28,751 nucleotides of DNA, from IMG/VR virus record IMGVR_UViG_2531839664_000032, one strand, 5' to 3'. The position numbers are program-made. Each line of letters opens with the position of its first letter. Position 1 is the first letter of the stretch. Origin of the DNA: a virus (taxonomy: Duplodnaviria > Heunggongvirae > Uroviricota > Caudoviricetes). Of this stretch, positions 23,901 to 28,751 are shown piece by piece.

Positions 23901-26900
23901 GGTGAACATCCGGCACTGACAGTTTACTGAAAGGATATTTCTCTGAAAAGTCAGAGCATAACGCGAAAGCGCACGGCGAGGTTGCTGGTTCATAGATAGC
24001 CTGTCGTTAAATTTTCGTCGACCGTGCGCTTCCGGTTGTGGCACTCCGCGAAATGGCGCAGCGGTAAGTATGGCGGGGTTATTCCTTCCCCGTTGAGGAC
24101 ACCGGGTTGTCAGGTTGACCATACGCTTAAGTGACAACCCCGCTGCAACGCCCTCTGTTATCAATTTTCTGGTGACGTTTGGCGGCATCTGTTTGCCCAT
24201 GAACTGATGTCCGCCCTTTTTAAAGTGAATTTTGTGATGCAGTGAATGCGGCTAAGCGCACGCGGAACAGTTAAAGCTAAAAACAGTGTTATGGGTGGAT
24301 TCTCTGTATCCGGCGTTAATTGTTAACTGGTTAACGTCACCTGGAGGCACCAGGCACCGCATCACAAAATTCATTGTTGAGGACGCGATAATGGAAACGT
24401 TATTACCAAACGTTAATACGTCTGAAGGTTGTTTTGAAATTGGTGTCACTATCAGTAACCCTGTATTTACTGAAGATGCCATTAACAAGAGAAAACACGA
24501 ACGGGAGTTATTAAATAAAATATGCATTCTTTCAATGCTGGCCCGTTTACGTCCGATACAAAAAGGATGCTGGCAATGAATACAGCATTTGCACTTGTTC
24601 TGACAGTTTTTCTTGTTTCCGGAGAGCCAGTTGATATTGCAGTCAGTGTTCACAGGACAATGCAGGAGTGTGTGACTGCAGCAACCGAACAGAAAATTCC
24701 CGGTAACTGTTACCCTGTCGATAAAGTTATTCACCAGGATAATAACGAAATCCCGGCAGGTCTTTAAAACAGTTCCGTAATAAACATCCGATTTCATTCT
24801 TATATGCCAGCAATGGCAGGGATTTGTTCACCCTTAAATCTGTAATGAGGTAAAACAAAATGAGTAAAGTCTTTATTTGCGCCGCCATTCCGGACGAACA
24901 GGCAATAAAGGAAGAAGGTGCAGTCGCTGTAGCCACTGCCATTGAAGCCGGTGATGAACGTCGCGCCCGCGCAAAATTTCACTGGCAATTCCTGGAGCAT
25001 TATCCGGCTGCTCAGGACTGCGCTTATAAATTTCTTGTTTGCGAGGATAAACCCGGTATACCCCGCCCTGCCCTCGATTCCTGGGATGCTGAATATATGC
25101 AGGAAAACCGCTGGGATGAGGGGGCTGCTTCCTTTGTCCCGGTTGAGACTGAATCAGATCCGATGAACGTCGCTTTTGACAAGCTGGCCCCTGAAGTACA
25201 GAACGCTGTCATGGTTAAGTTCGACACATGTGAAAACATCACCGTTGATATGGTGATTAGCGCGCAGGAATTGTTGCAGGAAGACATGGCAACATTCGAC
25301 GGACATATCGTTGAAGCGTTGATGAAAATGCCAGAAGTTAACGCCATGTATCCGGAGCTTAAGCTGCATGCCATCGGGTGGGTTAAGCATAAATGTAAGC
25401 CTGGTGCCAAATGGCCCGAAATTCAGGCAGAAATGCGCATCTGGAAAAAACGTCGCGAAGGTGAACGCAAGGAAACCGGAAAATACACGTCTGTTGTTGA
25501 TCTCGCCCGCGCCAGAGTCCACCGACAGCACACTGAAAACTCAGCAGAAAAAATCCCCCCTGTCACTGCAGTCATTCGTCGCGAATATAAGCAGACATGG
25601 AAAACACTGGATGACGAACTGGCCTACGCTCTCTGGCCTGGTGATGTGGATGCCGGAAACATTGACGGCAGCATCCATCGCTGGGCAAAAAATGAAGTTA
25701 TCGACAACGACCGCGAAGACTGGAAGCGTATCTCGGCATCAATGCGCAAACAGCCTGATGCCCTTCGCTACGACCGCCAGACTATTTTTGGCCTTGTCCG
25801 TGAACGTCCGATCGACATTCACAAAGACCCTGTGGCACTGAACAAATACATTACTGAATACCTGACTACAAAGGGCGTGTTTGAAGATGAAGGAACAAAT
25901 CAGAGCGCAACTGACACTCTCTCGTCGCCAGTACCAGAAACTGATGCAGTGGAAACGGCAATTCCGGACAACGAAAAAACCGAATGCAAAGTGGAAGTCG
26001 AACCATCTGTAGAGCGTGAGGGGCCGTTCTACTTCCTCTTCACCGACAAGGATTGCGAAAAATACGGTCGCGCAAACAAACTTTCTGGTCTGGATAAGGC
26101 GCTGGCTGCCGGGGCTACTGAAATCACAAAAGAAGAATATTTTGCCCGAAAAAATGGCACATACACAGGCTTACCGCAAAATGCAAATACCGCACAAAAT
26201 TCTGAACAACCAGAACCGGTAAAAGTTACCGCTGACGAAGTAAAGAAAATTATGCAGGCAGCCAATATCAGCCAGCCTGACGCCAATCAGTTGCTCGCCG
26301 CATCACGTGGTGAATTTGTTGCAGGGATTAGCGACCCGAATGATCCGAAATGGGTGAAGGGGATTGAAACCCGCGATTCTGTGAACCAGAACCAGCAAGA
26401 AACGGAACAGAACGACCAGAAAGCGGAACAAAACAGCCCAAATGCGTTACAAAACGAGCCAGAAACGAAACAGCCTGAACCAGTGGCGCAACAGGAAGTG
26501 GAAAAAGTCTGCACCGCCTGCGGTCAGACCGGCGGCGGCAACTGCCCTGATGGTGGCGCGGTGATGGGCGACGCAACATACCAGGAAATATTCGATGAAG
26601 AGAATCAGCCTGAAGTTCAGGAAAATGATCCGGAGGAAATGGAAGGTACTGCACATCAGCATAAGGAGAACACTGGCGGCAATCAGCATCATGCCAGCGA
26701 TAGTGAAACTGGCGAGGCGTCAGATCCCTTAATTAAGGCGAACAGTCATCATAATCTCACATCCACCAGCAGAGCGGGGATTCATCTGATGATCGACCTT
26801 GAAACCATGGGAAAAAATCCCGATGCCCCGATTATCTCAATAGGCGCAATATTTTTCGATCCGCAAACCGGAGATATGGGACCAGAATTTAGCAAGACCA

Positions 26901-28751
26901 TCGATCTGGATACTGCTGGCGGAGTCATTGATCGTGACGTCATTAAATGGTGGCTGAAGCAATCACGTGAAGCGCAGTCTGCCATTATGACCGATGAAAT
27001 CCCGTTAGATGATGCACTACTGCAATTGCGGGAATTTATCGACGAAAACTCCGGTGAGTTTTTTGTTCAGGTCTGGGGTAATGGGGCCAACTTCGACAAC
27101 ACGATTTTGCGCCGTTCATACGAACGACAGGGTATCCCCTGCCCGTGGCGCTACTGCAACGATCGCGATGTACGCACAATCGTTGAGCTGGGGAAAGCCG
27201 TAGACTTCGATGCCAGAACTGCTATCCCATTCGAAGGTGAGCGCCACAATGCGCTGGATGATGCCCGTTACCAGGCAAAATACGTTTCAACTATCTGGCA
27301 AAAACTGCTCCCGAATCAGGCTGATTTTTAATGTTCAACCCCGGTCGTTGCCCACCAGCTATAGTGGCGGCGACCATGATTAGCGAACGACGCTCATGGC
27401 AAGACTTATTCTGCTCACTGAGTGGGCAAAAGAGGAATTCAGTGAACCGGTCCCTACTCCGAGTACGTTAAGTAAATACGCTAAAGCCGGAATGATATTT
27501 CCTCTCCCCAAAAAAGTTGGAAGACGCTGGCGAGTGGATCCGCAAGCTCGCTTTGTCGGAATGGTAAACAAGCCGGAGGTGATCGCCACAGATCACCCTG
27601 CTTTGAAGAGGATACTGGAAGATGGCGCGCCCGCGAAAATATAAAACCGATGTTCCGGGATTATCTCCGTATTTTGACAAAAGAAATAACAAAGTTTACT
27701 GGCGTTACAGGCATCCCATAACAGGCAAAAATCACGGTCTCGGCAGTATGACCAGAAACTGGCAGAAACTATTGCAGCAGAAGCGAACAGCCGTCTTGCC
27801 CGGCAGCAAATGGAACAAATGCTCAGTCTGCAGGAGAAAATTATTAGTGATACCGGCGGTTCATCAACCGTTACCATTTTTCTGAATAATTACAGAAAAA
27901 TTCAACAGGAAAGATATGAAAACGGCGAGATCAAACTCAACACGCTGAAACAGAAAGCGGCCCCTCTCAGGGTATTTGATGAACGTTTTGGCACCAGACC
28001 GTTAGATGCCATAACCGTAAAAGATGTGGTATCAGTACTGGAAGAGTACAAGGCCAGAGGACATAACAGAATGGGACAAATTTTCAGGAAAGTACTGATC
28101 GATGTTTTCCGGGAAGCTCAGCAAACGGGCGATGTCCCGCCAGGCTTTAACCCTGCAGAATCTGCAAAAAAACCGCAGGTGCGGATATCAAGACAGCGAC
28201 TGACTTTTGATGAGTGGATGATGATTTATAACGCAGCGGAAAAGGATGGTTACTTTTTACAGCGCGGTATGCTGCTGGCACTGATGACAGGCCAGCGCCT
28301 TTCAGATATTTGCAAAATGCAATTTTCGGATATCCGGGATGGTTATCTTCATGTCGAACAGCAAAAAACAGGAACCCGGATTGCCATCCCTCTGGCTCTG
28401 CGTTGCGATAAATTAAATCTCACCCTAGATGATGTGGTGTCATCCTGCCGCGATTGCGTTCTTAGTCCGTGGCTATTGCACCACCATCACGCGAAAGGGA
28501 CAGCTAAGCGCGGCGGGATGGTTAAGCCAGCAACATTAACCGTTGCATTTAAAAAAGCCCGGGATTCTGTGGATTACAACTGGCGTGCTAATGGCCCCCC
28601 CCCCTCTTTCCATGAGCAGAGATCTTTATCAGAGCGATTGTTCAGAGAGCAGGGGGTTGATACCAAAATTTTGCTAGGCCATTCGAATCAAAAAATGACC
28701 GATATTTACAACGACGCACGCGGTAAGGAATGGAAAAAACTGGTCATTTGA

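What the first reader, a model, noticed from the sequence alone, without database searches (positions are those of the whole stretch)
24860..27331. Full-length ydfE-type protein: DEDDh exonuclease fused to a long acidic N-terminal region
The gene that is interrupted in K-12 Qin is intact here and ends in a clear DnaQ-like 3'-5' exonuclease domain (Exo I, II and III motifs with His). It is preceded by about 600 residues including a Gln/Glu/Pro-rich low-complexity linker and a small Cys cluster (CTACGQTGGGNCPDGG). Its position next to xis-int, where lambda has exo/bet, suggests a recombination or anti-defence nuclease, but the N-terminal domains are unassigned.
Basis: partly seen in the sequence, partly recalled or inferred. 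Interest (0 to 1): 0.45.

Follow-up and report, generated by a model that had tools for sequence, protein, structure and literature searches.

The report
RecE-like scaffold carrying a 3'-5' exonuclease
This is the intact form of the E. coli prophage gene ydfE, a very common but untested phage early protein that keeps the non-catalytic body of the RecE recombination nuclease, carries a proofreading-type (3'-to-5') DNA exonuclease where RecE has its usual nuclease, and has no annealing-protein partner.

Summary
Window 24860-27331 (+) is an intact 823-aa ORF. K-12 ydfE equals its first 256 residues and is then cut by IS2. The C-terminus (aa 641-823) is a DEDDh exonuclease (Pfam PF16473, E=2e-65; D646, E648, D746, H796, D801).

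The 640 upstream residues are four folded units (1-97, 101-210, 241-344, 386-438), all under purifying selection, plus near-neutral disordered acidic linkers. Part of this region is shared with RecE, including a conserved CxxC-x8-CxxC knuckle that is degenerate here (Cys565 to Gly).

Among relatives the same scaffold carries a DEDDh domain, a RecE-type PD-(D/E)XK domain or a third C-terminus, and the neighbouring gene tracks the choice:
- PD-(D/E)XK: RecT next door (4/4).
- Third type: Sipho_Gp157 (5/5).
- DEDDh: xis-int directly (0/80 with RecT).

The closest stand-alone homologue lies in an Erf-SSB-Abc2 recombination module, and the only solved sequence relative is T4 DexA, a DNase.

My best reading is a phage early DNA 3'-end exonuclease working with host recombination functions, not a Red/RecET-type pair. 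That part is inferred. A 5hmC-specific defence role is not supported.

The family is catalogued (Pfam YdfE_N/YdfE_C; present in about 65% of complete E. coli genomes) but has never been tested. Interest is moderate.

The parts
24860..27331 (+). Complete CDS, 823 aa plus stop: full-length YdfE-type exonuclease (identical to RefSeq WP_000048547.1)
24847..24850 (+). GAGG ribosome-binding site, 9 nt before the ATG. No dedicated promoter above chance upstream.
24860..25150 (+). Folded unit A (aa 1-97), alpha/beta, pLDDT about 90-96, dN/dS 0.11. Part of the region retained in K-12 ydfE.
25160..25489 (+). Folded unit B (aa 101-210), helical, pLDDT above 90, dN/dS 0.14
25580..25891 (+). Folded unit C (aa 241-344), helical, pLDDT 91-96, dN/dS 0.05. 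The module most widely shared with RecE-type proteins (RecE aa ~278-360).
26015..26173 (+). Folded unit D (aa 386-438), two beta-hairpins plus helices, pLDDT 88-96, dN/dS 0.10
26270..26734 (+). Module shared with RecE aa ~455-591 (aa 471-625; about 75% identical in protein and DNA). Predicted mostly disordered. Contains the GISDPNDPKW motif, the Q/N/E/P-rich stretch, the Cys knuckle and an acidic tail.
26510..26557 (+). Cys knuckle CTACGQTGGGNCPDGG (aa 551-566). The family consensus is CxxC-x8-CxxC. The fourth Cys is Gly565 here (GGT versus TGT).
26780..27328 (+). DEDDh 3'-5' exonuclease domain (aa 641-823), PF16473. Catalytic residues D646, E648, D746, H796, D801. dN/dS 0.17.
24167..24216 (+). 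DicF-like sRNA in the same operon (43.5 bits, just below Rfam gathering score of 48; E=7e-8)
24391..24579 (+). dicB, upstream gene of the same early-left operon
24576..24767 (+). ydfD (DUF1482), immediately upstream gene
27396..27644 (+). Excisionase, immediately downstream. No annealing-protein gene intervenes.
27622..28751 (+). Integrase, frameshifted (two overlapping ORFs); runs off the window end

Best explanation
The gene encodes a phage early protein made of two separable parts.

Part 1 is a RecE-family scaffold (aa 1-640). It has four small folded units joined by disordered acidic linkers, and a zinc-knuckle-like CxxC-x8-CxxC motif that has lost one Cys in this allele.

Part 2 is a DexA/Rv2179c-type DEDDh exonuclease (aa 641-823). 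It occupies the position where RecE carries its PD-(D/E)XK 5'-3' nuclease.

The gene is transcribed with dicF-dicB-ydfD-xis-int from the repressor-controlled early-left promoter, so it should be made on infection or induction rather than in the quiescent lysogen.

Proposed mechanism: the scaffold places the nuclease at its site of action (DNA ends, or a host or phage factor bound there), and the DEDDh domain removes nucleotides from DNA 3' ends. This cannot generate the 3' tails that an annealing protein needs, and no annealing protein or RecBCD inhibitor is encoded beside it. I therefore propose that it trims 3' tails and conditions the ends of phage replication or recombination intermediates so that host RecBCD-Chi/RecA can act on them.

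Shown here: the architecture, intact catalytic residues, purifying selection on every folded unit, the operon position, the domain-swap pattern and the partner co-variation.

Inferred: the DNA (rather than RNA) substrate, the tethering role of the scaffold and the link to RecBCD.
For: Nuclease identity:
- PF16473 at E=2e-65 with all five DEDDh residues.
- DEDDh fold matches.

DNA rather than RNA:
- The only solved relative detectable by sequence is T4 DexA, a DNA exonuclease (E=1.5e-6). Rv2179c is not recovered even at E<=10.
- The closest stand-alone homologue (57% identity, phage Bas106) lies between an Erf-like annealing protein/SSB/endonuclease and Abc2 anti-RecBCD, inside a canonical Rec module.
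- PMC12315714 independently lists DnaQ-like nucleases as Rec-module members.

Scaffold is RecE-related and modular:
- aa 262-625 align to RecE 278-591, about 75% identical over 470-625.
- Relatives combine a YdfE-type or RecE-type N-terminus with a DEDDh, PD-(D/E)XK or third C-terminus. One example is the RecE N-terminus plus DEDDh in a Rac-like prophage.

Partner co-variation:
- PD-(D/E)XK versions are followed by RecT (L007, L009, L021 and K-12).
- Third-type versions are followed by Sipho_Gp157 (5/5).
- DEDDh versions are followed directly by xis/int, and 0/80 viral-contig loci have RecT or Gp157.

Functional constraint:
- dN/dS is 0.05-0.17 in units A-D and the nuclease, against 0.64-1.29 in the linkers. 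This matches the AF2 domain map.

Link to host RecBCD:
- Phage Tritos carries this gene (91.7% identity) as the only nuclease in its early-left operon.
- Tritos is the prototype of the 'nuclease only, no SAP, no anti-RecBCD, Chi-rich' class in PMC12315714.

Established knowledge (mine, not tested here): RecBCD needs blunt or nearly blunt ends, and host 3'-5' ssDNA exonucleases assist RecBCD-dependent recombination.
Against: - No biochemical or genetic data exist for this protein or any close relative.
- PF16473 also contains a true exoribonuclease (Rv2179c), and RefSeq names many copies 'exoribonuclease'.
- 3'-5' exonucleases usually inhibit rather than promote recombination, as noted in PMC12315714.
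- The neighbour correlation rests on few independent lineages. The 80 viral loci are near-identical E. coli copies.
- This allele has lost a conserved knuckle Cys, so this particular copy may be partly impaired.
- The prophage here is decayed and its integrase is frameshifted.
Confidence: 0.45

Rival explanations
1. Prophage-encoded defence (superinfection-exclusion) nuclease. It would either be an HREX/EcD-like exonuclease that degrades cytosine-modified DNA of T-even phages, or a TONDO/ISG20-like DEDDh protein with an auxiliary domain that trims RNA-phage genomes.
For: - The E. coli DexA homologue EcD cleaves 5hmC DNA only and protects against T4 (PMC12153337).
- An EcD-like 189-aa protein is 36-38% identical to this domain.
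- Prophage DEDDh proteins with auxiliary domains defend against MS2 and Qbeta (PMC13344964).
- The gene is kept intact in a decayed prophage and occurs in about 65% of complete E. coli genomes.
- The DexA-W152 position varies among alleles (Y, C, H, T, W).
Against: - The EcD signature defined in that paper is not met. The W152 equivalent is Cys766, the D169 equivalent is Lys or Ala depending on the alignment, and the D90 equivalent (absent in EcD) is retained as D718.
- The gene lies in the repressor-controlled early-left operon with no promoter of its own above chance, so it should be silent in lysogens.
- PADLOC gives only a generic Cas-associated DEDDh hit at E=2.8e-5.
- TONDOs were selected from proteins under 500 aa of an ISG20-like clade.
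- K-12 tolerates loss of the gene.
Confidence: 0.15
2. Counter-defence nuclease. It would destroy a host immune nucleic acid during infection, for example retron msDNA or a cyclic or linear oligonucleotide signal, in the manner of nanoRNases.
For: - Fold matches include Orn, REXO2 and Cap18, which act on short oligonucleotides or belong to CBASS systems.
- It is an early-expressed phage gene at an accessory position next to int.
- From my own knowledge, not verified here: RecE has been reported to act on retron msDNA.
Against: - The fold similarity is generic to all DEDDh enzymes.
- No literature or PADLOC link was found.
- This reading does not explain the shared RecE scaffold or the co-variation with RecT and Gp157.
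Confidence: 0.12
3. RNA exonuclease of the Rv2179c type, acting on phage or host transcripts, for example 3' processing within the dicF-dicB operon.
For: - The Pfam family is named for the M. tuberculosis 3'-5' exoribonuclease Rv2179c.
- RefSeq names many copies 'exoribonuclease'.
- A DicF-like sRNA is encoded about 650 nt upstream in the same operon.
Against: - Rv2179c is not detectable by sequence, whereas DexA, a DNase, is.
- The nearest stand-alone homologue lies in a DNA recombination module.
- The scaffold is shared with a DNA exonuclease, RecE.
Confidence: 0.08
4. A decaying, functionless remnant of a recE-like gene in a defective prophage.
For: - The prophage in the window is degraded: terminase fragment, IS elements, frameshifted integrase.
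- K-12 carries a disrupted copy.
- This allele has lost a conserved Cys.
Against: - The ORF is intact and identical in many genomes.
- The folded units have dN/dS of 0.05-0.17.
- The gene is present in viable free phages: Tritos, mEp460_ev081, HannyBb.
- 57 of 71 viral-contig copies are exactly 823 aa.
Confidence: 0.03

Closest known systems
RecE (exodeoxyribonuclease VIII) of the Rac prophage, partner of RecT
   Same: - Large multi-domain early-left-operon protein next to xis-int.
- Shares helical unit C and a module of about 155 aa with the GISDPNDPKW motif, the CxxC-x8-CxxC knuckle and an acidic tail, about 75% identical.
- The non-nuclease region has no known function in either protein (PMC11611040).
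- Natural chimeras exist: RecE N-terminus plus this DEDDh domain.
   Different: - RecE's N-terminal PF06630 domain is absent.
- The nuclease is DEDDh (expected 3'-5') instead of PD-(D/E)XK (5'-3').
- The NCBIfam RecE equivalog scores 269 bits against a cut-off of 1269.
- There is no adjacent RecT.
T4 DexA (exonuclease A; PDB 8KEL/8KEN)
   Same: Same Pfam family. It is the only solved structure detectable by sequence (E=1.5e-6). All five catalytic residues align.
   Different: - About 25% identity.
- DexA is a stand-alone 227-aa protein of a virulent phage, with extra loops.
- The residues proposed for 5hmC recognition (W152, D169) are not conserved here.
Stand-alone DnaQ-like exonucleases in P22-like lambdoid Rec modules (e.g. 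phage Bas106 gp31; the epsilon34-type cited in PMC12315714)
   Same: The closest homologue of the nuclease domain (57% identity over 175 aa). It is in a lambdoid early-left operon.
   Different: It is a 182-aa protein with no scaffold, embedded between Erf/SSB/endonuclease and Abc2. The window gene has a 640-aa scaffold and none of those partners.
EcD / 'HREX' E. coli DexA homologue (PMC12153337)
   Same: DEDDh domain of the same family in E. coli mobile DNA, 36-38% identical.
   Different: - EcD is a stand-alone protein of about 189 aa.
- Its diagnostic residues are W, E and A at DexA positions 152, 169 and 90. The window protein has C, K or A, and D there.
K-12 YdfE (b1577, Qin prophage pseudogene)
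   Same: Orthologous locus and operon (dicF-dicB-ydfD-ydfE-int). 93% identical over aa 1-256.
   Different: The K-12 copy is truncated by IS2E after codon 256 and lacks units C and D, the RecE-shared module and the nuclease.

Membership tests
DEDDh (DnaQ-like) 3'-5' exonuclease superfamily, Pfam PF16473 Rv2179c-like | Profile match above the curated cut-off | tested here: met
   220.2 bits against a cut-off of 27, E=2e-65, aa 642-813 covering profile positions 2-177 of 177
DEDDh (DnaQ-like) 3'-5' exonuclease superfamily, Pfam PF16473 Rv2179c-like | Exo I D-x-E, Exo II D, Exo III H-x4-D catalytic residues | tested here: met
   D646/E648, D746 and H796/D801 align with DexA D7/E9, D119 and H186/D191
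DEDDh (DnaQ-like) 3'-5' exonuclease superfamily, Pfam PF16473 Rv2179c-like | RNase-H-like DEDDh fold | tested here: met
   All 50 Foldseek PDB hits with E<=0.001 are DEDDh enzymes (RNase T at 4.8e-6, Cap18, REXO2, Orn, ERI1). Target TM is about 0.6. The model of this domain has only moderate confidence.
DEDDh (DnaQ-like) 3'-5' exonuclease superfamily, Pfam PF16473 Rv2179c-like | Mg-dependent 3'-5' exonuclease activity, and substrate (DNA or RNA) | not testable with these tools
   Needs enzymology
RecE / exodeoxyribonuclease VIII | Whole-protein match to the NCBIfam equivalog PRK09709 | tested here: not met
   269 bits against a cut-off of 1269. Only aa 452-626 match well.
RecE / exodeoxyribonuclease VIII | N-terminal Exonuc_VIII domain (PF06630) | tested here: not met
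   Found in K-12 RecE (E=6e-98) but not in this protein
RecE / exodeoxyribonuclease VIII | C-terminal PD-(D/E)XK nuclease domain (PF12684 / PDB 3H4R) | tested here: not met
   No hit. A DEDDh domain occupies that position.
RecE / exodeoxyribonuclease VIII | Adjacent RecT annealing-protein gene | tested here: not met
   xis follows directly. 0/80 related loci have RecT within about 6 kb.
RecE / exodeoxyribonuclease VIII | Shared non-nuclease middle region (unit C; knuckle module) | tested here: met
   BLASTP E=2e-56 over aa 262-625 against RecE 278-591; DNA 75% identical over 443 nt
YdfE family (Pfam PF27430 YdfE_N, PF27432 YdfE_C) | Match to the YdfE_N and YdfE_C models | tested here: inconclusive
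   The models are not in the local Pfam copy. All 120 listed relatives (89-100% identical to the query) carry precomputed PF27430 and PF27432 hits, the names are given, and K-12 YdfE is 93% identical over aa 1-256. Membership is very likely but was not scored directly on this sequence.
HREX / EcD-type 5hmC-specific exonuclease (PMC12153337) | Trp at DexA position 152 and an acidic residue at position 169 (proposed 5hmC recognition) | tested here: not met
   Cys766 at position 152. Lys or Ala at position 169 depending on the alignment, with D782/D784 nearby. EcD-like has W and E.
HREX / EcD-type 5hmC-specific exonuclease (PMC12153337) | Loss of the tetramer-forming Asp90 equivalent | tested here: not met
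   D718 is retained. EcD-like has Ala78.
HREX / EcD-type 5hmC-specific exonuclease (PMC12153337) | Selective cleavage of 5hmC DNA and protection from T4 | not testable with these tools
   Needs assays
Two-component phage recombinase (exonuclease plus single-strand annealing protein; lambda Red, RecET) | 5'-3' dsDNA exonuclease of the PD-(D/E)XK class paired with an adjacent SAP | tested here: not met
   The nuclease is DEDDh. No RecT-, Erf- or Bet-like gene lies between the repressor and int, and the upstream ORFs fall in PHROGs of unknown function.

The most novel reading that the evidence does not exclude
The RecE/YdfE non-catalytic region may be a nuclease-agnostic targeting platform. Lambdoid phages would plug alternative nucleases into it (5'-3' PD-(D/E)XK, 3'-5' DEDDh or a third domain), each with its own partner (RecT, none, Gp157). 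On this reading the DEDDh version defines a third, annealing-protein-independent strategy: the phage trims its own DNA 3' ends to hand them to host RecBCD-Chi/RecA. This would also give the first functional handle on the RecE N-terminal region, whose role remains unknown and which enhances linear-linear recombination.
Probability: 0.25. Interest if true: 0.6.

Novelty: new variant of a known kind. Interest (0 to 1): 0.4.

Why it matters
The gene has a near-full-length copy in 3,533 of 5,426 complete E. coli genomes, often several per genome, and it occurs in viable lambdoid phages. No experiment has addressed it.

Comparison shows that the unexplained 'body' of RecE, a workhorse of recombineering, is an exchangeable platform that also carries a nuclease of opposite polarity. 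It also shows that the neighbouring partner gene changes with the nuclease.

This turns two open questions into simple experiments with existing phages (Tritos, mEp460, HannyBb) and domain-swap constructs:
- What does the RecE N-terminal region do?
- How do Chi-rich lambdoid phages without a Rec module handle their DNA ends?

For annotation, the frequent labels 'exodeoxyribonuclease VIII' and 'exoribonuclease' on these genes are probably both misleading.

Tried and rejected
- Literature on ydfE and Rv2179c: nothing functional about this protein.
- A word-start search for 'full-length RecE' matched 'receptor' and was wasted.
- The Genome Research supplementary tables are not held. I could not see how the authors typed the Tritos nuclease, so I checked directly that this gene is the only nuclease in Tritos's early-left operon.
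- Identity with the tested protein EcD is rejected. EcD starts MIDTET by its primer. The matching 189-aa protein is only 36-38% identical and is stand-alone.
- PADLOC gave only a generic DEDDh hit.
- A dedicated promoter or terminator: none above the shuffled expectation.
- I considered GISDPxDPKW as a universal hallmark of the superfamily and rejected it. It is present in only 22 of 50 long relatives.
- The module-C alignment of all subtypes was too diverse for locus finding, so I used the YdfE-type subset.
- A hidden annealing protein or RecBCD inhibitor among the upstream ORFs is rejected. Pfam gives nothing and the ORFs fall in PHROGs of unknown function.

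
Full report
OBSERVATION

Window 24860-27331 on the + strand is a single ATG-initiated ORF of 823 codons, with a GAGG ribosome-binding site 9 nt upstream. The DNA is 100% identical to a gene annotated 'exonuclease' (WP_000048547.1) in E. coli O121, O103 and related genomes. Of 5,426 complete E. coli genomes, 4,798 hold a match and 3,533 hold one covering at least 80% of the gene, with a median of two places per genome. It also occurs at 89-94% identity in free lambdoid phages: mEp460_ev081, Tritos, HannyBb, PhiR42_1, Evi and the 'PPompW' phages.

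K-12 ydfE (b1577, annotated pseudogene) matches nt 1-767, or aa 1-256, at 93% identity and then enters IS2E.

THE NUCLEASE

Residues 642-813 match Pfam PF16473 (Rv2179c-like 3'-5' exoribonuclease domain) end to end at E=2e-65. The general RNase_T model matches weakly and below its cut-off. The DEDDh residues can be read directly:
- D646 and E648 in MIDLET.
- D746 in NFD.
- H796 and D801 in HNALDD.

They align column for column with D7, E9, D119, H186 and D191 of T4 DexA. An AlphaFold2 model of the whole protein (mean pLDDT 69; this domain mostly 65-85) finds only DEDDh enzymes in the PDB at E<=0.001: RNase T, Cap18, REXO2, Orn and ERI1.

By sequence, the only solved relative is DexA, a DNA exonuclease (PDB 8KEL/8KEN, E=1.5e-6). 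Rv2179c itself is not recovered even at E<=10.

THE OTHER 640 RESIDUES

A second model of aa 1-440, built with 42 diverse relatives, reaches mean pLDDT 84. Together with the full-length model it resolves four folded units:

| Unit | Residues | Fold |
|---|---|---|
| A | 1-97 | alpha/beta |
| B | 101-210 | helical |
| C | 241-344 | helical |
| D | 386-438 | two beta-hairpins plus helices |

The segments 211-240, 345-383 and most of 439-640 are predicted disordered.

An independent test agrees. Among 53 unique collinear 823-aa alleles, dN/dS is 0.11, 0.14, 0.05 and 0.10 for units A-D and 0.17 for the nuclease. It is 1.29, 0.64 and 0.73 for linkers 211-240, 345-385 and 576-640. Two caveats apply. 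The loci were retrieved by similarity to unit C, which deflates divergence there. dS also varies about ten-fold between regions, a sign of mosaic recombination.

The region is no longer unassigned in the database sense. All 120 listed relatives, 89-100% identical to the query, carry precomputed hits to two recent Pfam families named YdfE_N (PF27430) and YdfE_C (PF27432). These families are absent from the local Pfam copy, and no function is attached to the names.

RELATION TO RecE

NCBIfam's RecE equivalog matches aa 452-626 only (269 bits against a cut-off of 1269). BLASTP aligns aa 262-625 with RecE 278-591 at E=2e-56. Similarity is weak over unit C and about 75% identity from aa 470 on. At the DNA level, nt 1432-1874 are 75% identical to K-12 recE.

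The 'small Cys cluster' belongs to this shared module. RecE has CNACGQTGGDNCPDCG, a complete CxxC-x8-CxxC. 128 of 130 motif instances in relatives, and 70 of 71 viral-contig copies, keep all four Cys. The window allele and its immediate lineage (two 90%-identity clusters, one with 1,430 members) have CPDGG, a TGT-to-GGT change.

RecE's N-terminal PF06630 domain and its PD-(D/E)XK nuclease domain are both absent. [quoted passage not shown] A MODULAR FAMILY

An exhaustive search of 1.84 billion cluster representatives with aa 1-640 finds only 251 at E<=0.001, many of them fragments. I classified the long ones with module queries. This showed combinatorial architectures:
- YdfE-type N-terminus plus DEDDh (this protein).
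- RecE-type N-terminus plus DEDDh (P0129, P0140, P0251, P0138).
- YdfE-type N-terminus plus PD-(D/E)XK (P0131, P0197, P0243).
- RecE proper.
- Many proteins with the YdfE-type N-terminus and a C-terminus that has no Pfam match. PHROGs labels this C-terminus 'exonuclease'. These proteins may correspond to the 'RecE-2' proteins of PMC12315714.

NEIGHBOURS TRACK THE C-TERMINUS

PD-(D/E)XK versions are followed by a RecT-family gene: L007, L009 and L021 (Pfam RecT E=2e-36 to 3e-44) and K-12 recE-recT.

Third-type versions are followed by an overlapping Sipho_Gp157 gene in all five loci tested, from Enterobacter, Pantoea, Raoultella, Escherichia whittamii and Rosenbergiella.

DEDDh versions are followed directly by excisionase and integrase. 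This holds for the window, mEp460_ev081, Tritos, E. albertii, E. ruysiae and vB_EcoM-606R7. It also holds for the RecE-N/DEDDh chimera in a Rac-like prophage (sieB-kilR-ydaE-gene-xis-int), where recT is missing.

In 80 IMG/VR loci of the E. coli type:
- 71 have scaffold and DEDDh in one ORF (57 of exactly 823 aa).
- 69 have dicB upstream.
- None has RecT or Gp157 within about 6 kb.

These 80 loci are close relatives, so the DEDDh-with-no-partner rule rests on few independent contexts, at least the Qin-like and the Rac-like one.

OPERON CONTEXT

The order is: cI-like repressor, three small ORFs, DicF-like sRNA (24167-24216; 43.5 bits, just under Rfam's gathering score), dicB, ydfD, this gene, xis, int. 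The order is the same in the viable phage Tritos. No promoter- or terminator-like site exceeds the shuffled expectation. The upstream unannotated ORFs have no Pfam hit and fall in PHROGs of unknown function, so no hidden annealing protein or RecBCD inhibitor is recognisable.

The prophage in the window, integrated at ompW, is decayed. It has a terminase fragment, IS elements and a frameshifted integrase, and it carries T3SS effector cargo.

WHAT THE NUCLEASE DOMAIN DOES ELSEWHERE

The domain occurs in 733 phage records, mostly as a stand-alone protein of about 180 aa. The closest one (57% identity, phage Bas106) lies in a canonical lambdoid Rec module: Erf-like annealing protein, SSB, endonuclease, this exonuclease, Abc2 anti-RecBCD.

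PMC12315714 independently reports DnaQ-like 3'-5' nucleases as Rec-module members. It notes that such nucleases usually inhibit recombination. Its Table 1 lists Tritos as the prototype of a class with a nuclease but no annealing protein, SSB or anti-RecBCD function, and with many Chi sites. This gene is the only nuclease in Tritos's early-left operon.

THE DEFENCE HYPOTHESIS

PMC12153337 reports that an E. coli DexA homologue, EcD, cleaves only 5hmC DNA and protects against T4. The authors attribute this to retention of DexA W152 and D169 and loss of D90.

Using the EcD primer sequence I recovered a 189-aa stand-alone protein that has Ala78 and a 3' end matching the reverse primer apart from one base. 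It is 36-38% identical to the window's domain. At the three diagnostic positions it has W, E and A. The window protein has C766, K or A (depending on the alignment) and D718.

Most alleles of this family have Tyr at the first position (56 of 71), and this window's Cys is a minority variant. With the repressed operon position and the absence of any PADLOC system hit, I rate a defence role as possible but unsupported. A July 2026 preprint on ISG20-like prophage DEDDh proteins with auxiliary domains that block RNA phages (PMC13344964) concerns proteins under 500 aa from another clade.

INTERPRETATION

Shown:
- The architecture, the intact active site and selection on each folded unit.
- Homology of the scaffold to RecE.
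- Exchangeability of the nuclease and co-variation of the neighbouring gene.
- The early-left operon position in viable phages.

Inferred:
- The domain acts on DNA 3' ends.
- The scaffold positions it.
- Lacking an annealing protein and a RecBCD inhibitor, the phage uses it to trim 3' tails or otherwise condition DNA ends for host RecBCD-Chi/RecA.

I give this reading about 0.45. Smaller weights go to defence (0.15), counter-defence (0.12), an RNA role (0.08) and a functionless relic (0.03). The remainder is unassigned.

NOVELTY

The protein family is catalogued and abundant, and one recent genomic survey has counted it as a nuclease. Nothing about it has been tested. It differs from the characterised RecE in two defining features, the nuclease fold and polarity and the RecT partner. 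I therefore file it as a new variant of a known kind, of moderate interest.

Noticed in passing
window 26510-26557 (codon 565 at 26552-26554): This allele replaces the fourth Cys of a CxxC-x8-CxxC knuckle with Gly (GGT versus TGT). The Cys is conserved in 128 of 130 motif instances in relatives and in 70 of 71 viral-contig copies. The variant is confined to this lineage: two 90%-identity clusters, one with 1,430 members. It may weaken metal binding.
   Followed up: partly
window 27155-27157 (Cys766), the position equivalent to T4 DexA Trp152: This position in the nuclease domain, proposed as a substrate-recognition residue, varies among otherwise very similar alleles. In the 71 viral-contig copies it is Tyr 56, Cys 7, His 3 and Thr 1 (4 copies did not match the motif pattern). 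Trp occurs in more distant relatives (P0251, Bas106, EcD-like). This could be drift or diversifying selection on substrate choice.
   Followed up: partly
window 24167-24216 (+): A full-length DicF-like sRNA scores 43.5 bits, just below Rfam's gathering score of 48 (E=7e-8). The default Rfam search therefore missed it, and the identical RefSeq record does not annotate it.
   Followed up: yes
window 26763 and 27352 (minus strand); 15230 (plus strand): Two Chi octamers (GCTGGTGG) lie on the minus strand. One is inside the gene at the linker/nuclease junction and one is between the gene and xis. A third lies on the plus strand at 15230. I did not assess orientation relative to cos or packaging.
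   Followed up: no
window ~2142-10416 (espM1 2142-2732 -, nleG 2916-3563 +, nleF 5720-6289 -, nleH1-2 6355-7275 -, nleA 9091-10416 +): The prophage carries a cluster of type III secretion effector genes interspersed with IS fragments. It is an effector-exchange-type decayed lambdoid prophage at ompW.
   Followed up: partly
window 17239-17997 (-): An AcfC-family adhesin gene (paa) and a frameshifted fimbrial gene sit between the replication genes and hokD, inside the prophage.
   Followed up: no
window 27622-28751 (+): The integrase is split into two overlapping ORFs (27622-27885 and 27810 onward) and is annotated as frameshifted in the identical RefSeq record. The prophage is probably locked in place.
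   Followed up: partly
L013:6302-9150, L014, L017, L019, L020 (Enterobacter, Pantoea, Raoultella, E. whittamii, Rosenbergiella): Relatives with the YdfE-type scaffold and a C-terminal domain that has no Pfam match (PHROG 7838/2489, 'exonuclease') are always followed by an overlapping Sipho_Gp157 gene. This looks like an unstudied two-gene module parallel to recE-recT.
   Followed up: partly
L006:5001-7418 (E. coli GCA_039763085.1): A natural chimera: RecE N-terminal 450 aa (near-identical to K-12 RecE) fused through the shared knuckle module to the DEDDh domain. It sits in a Rac-like prophage that lacks recT, ralR and rcbA. The crossover appears to lie in the shared module.
   Followed up: partly
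window 27317-27328 (C-terminal residues ...NQADF): The protein ends in a short acidic-aromatic tail (QADF-COOH) that is conserved in P0129 and P0140. It is faintly reminiscent of the SSB C-terminal peptide. This is pure speculation and I did not test it.
   Followed up: no
L125:~6232 (minus strand) and five other IMG/VR contigs (L107, L112, L122, L123, L128): These carry a 189-aa stand-alone DEDDh protein starting MIDTETLGNG, with Ala78. It is the probable 'EcD' of PMC12153337. The published reverse primer differs from these sequences by one inserted A.
   Followed up: partly
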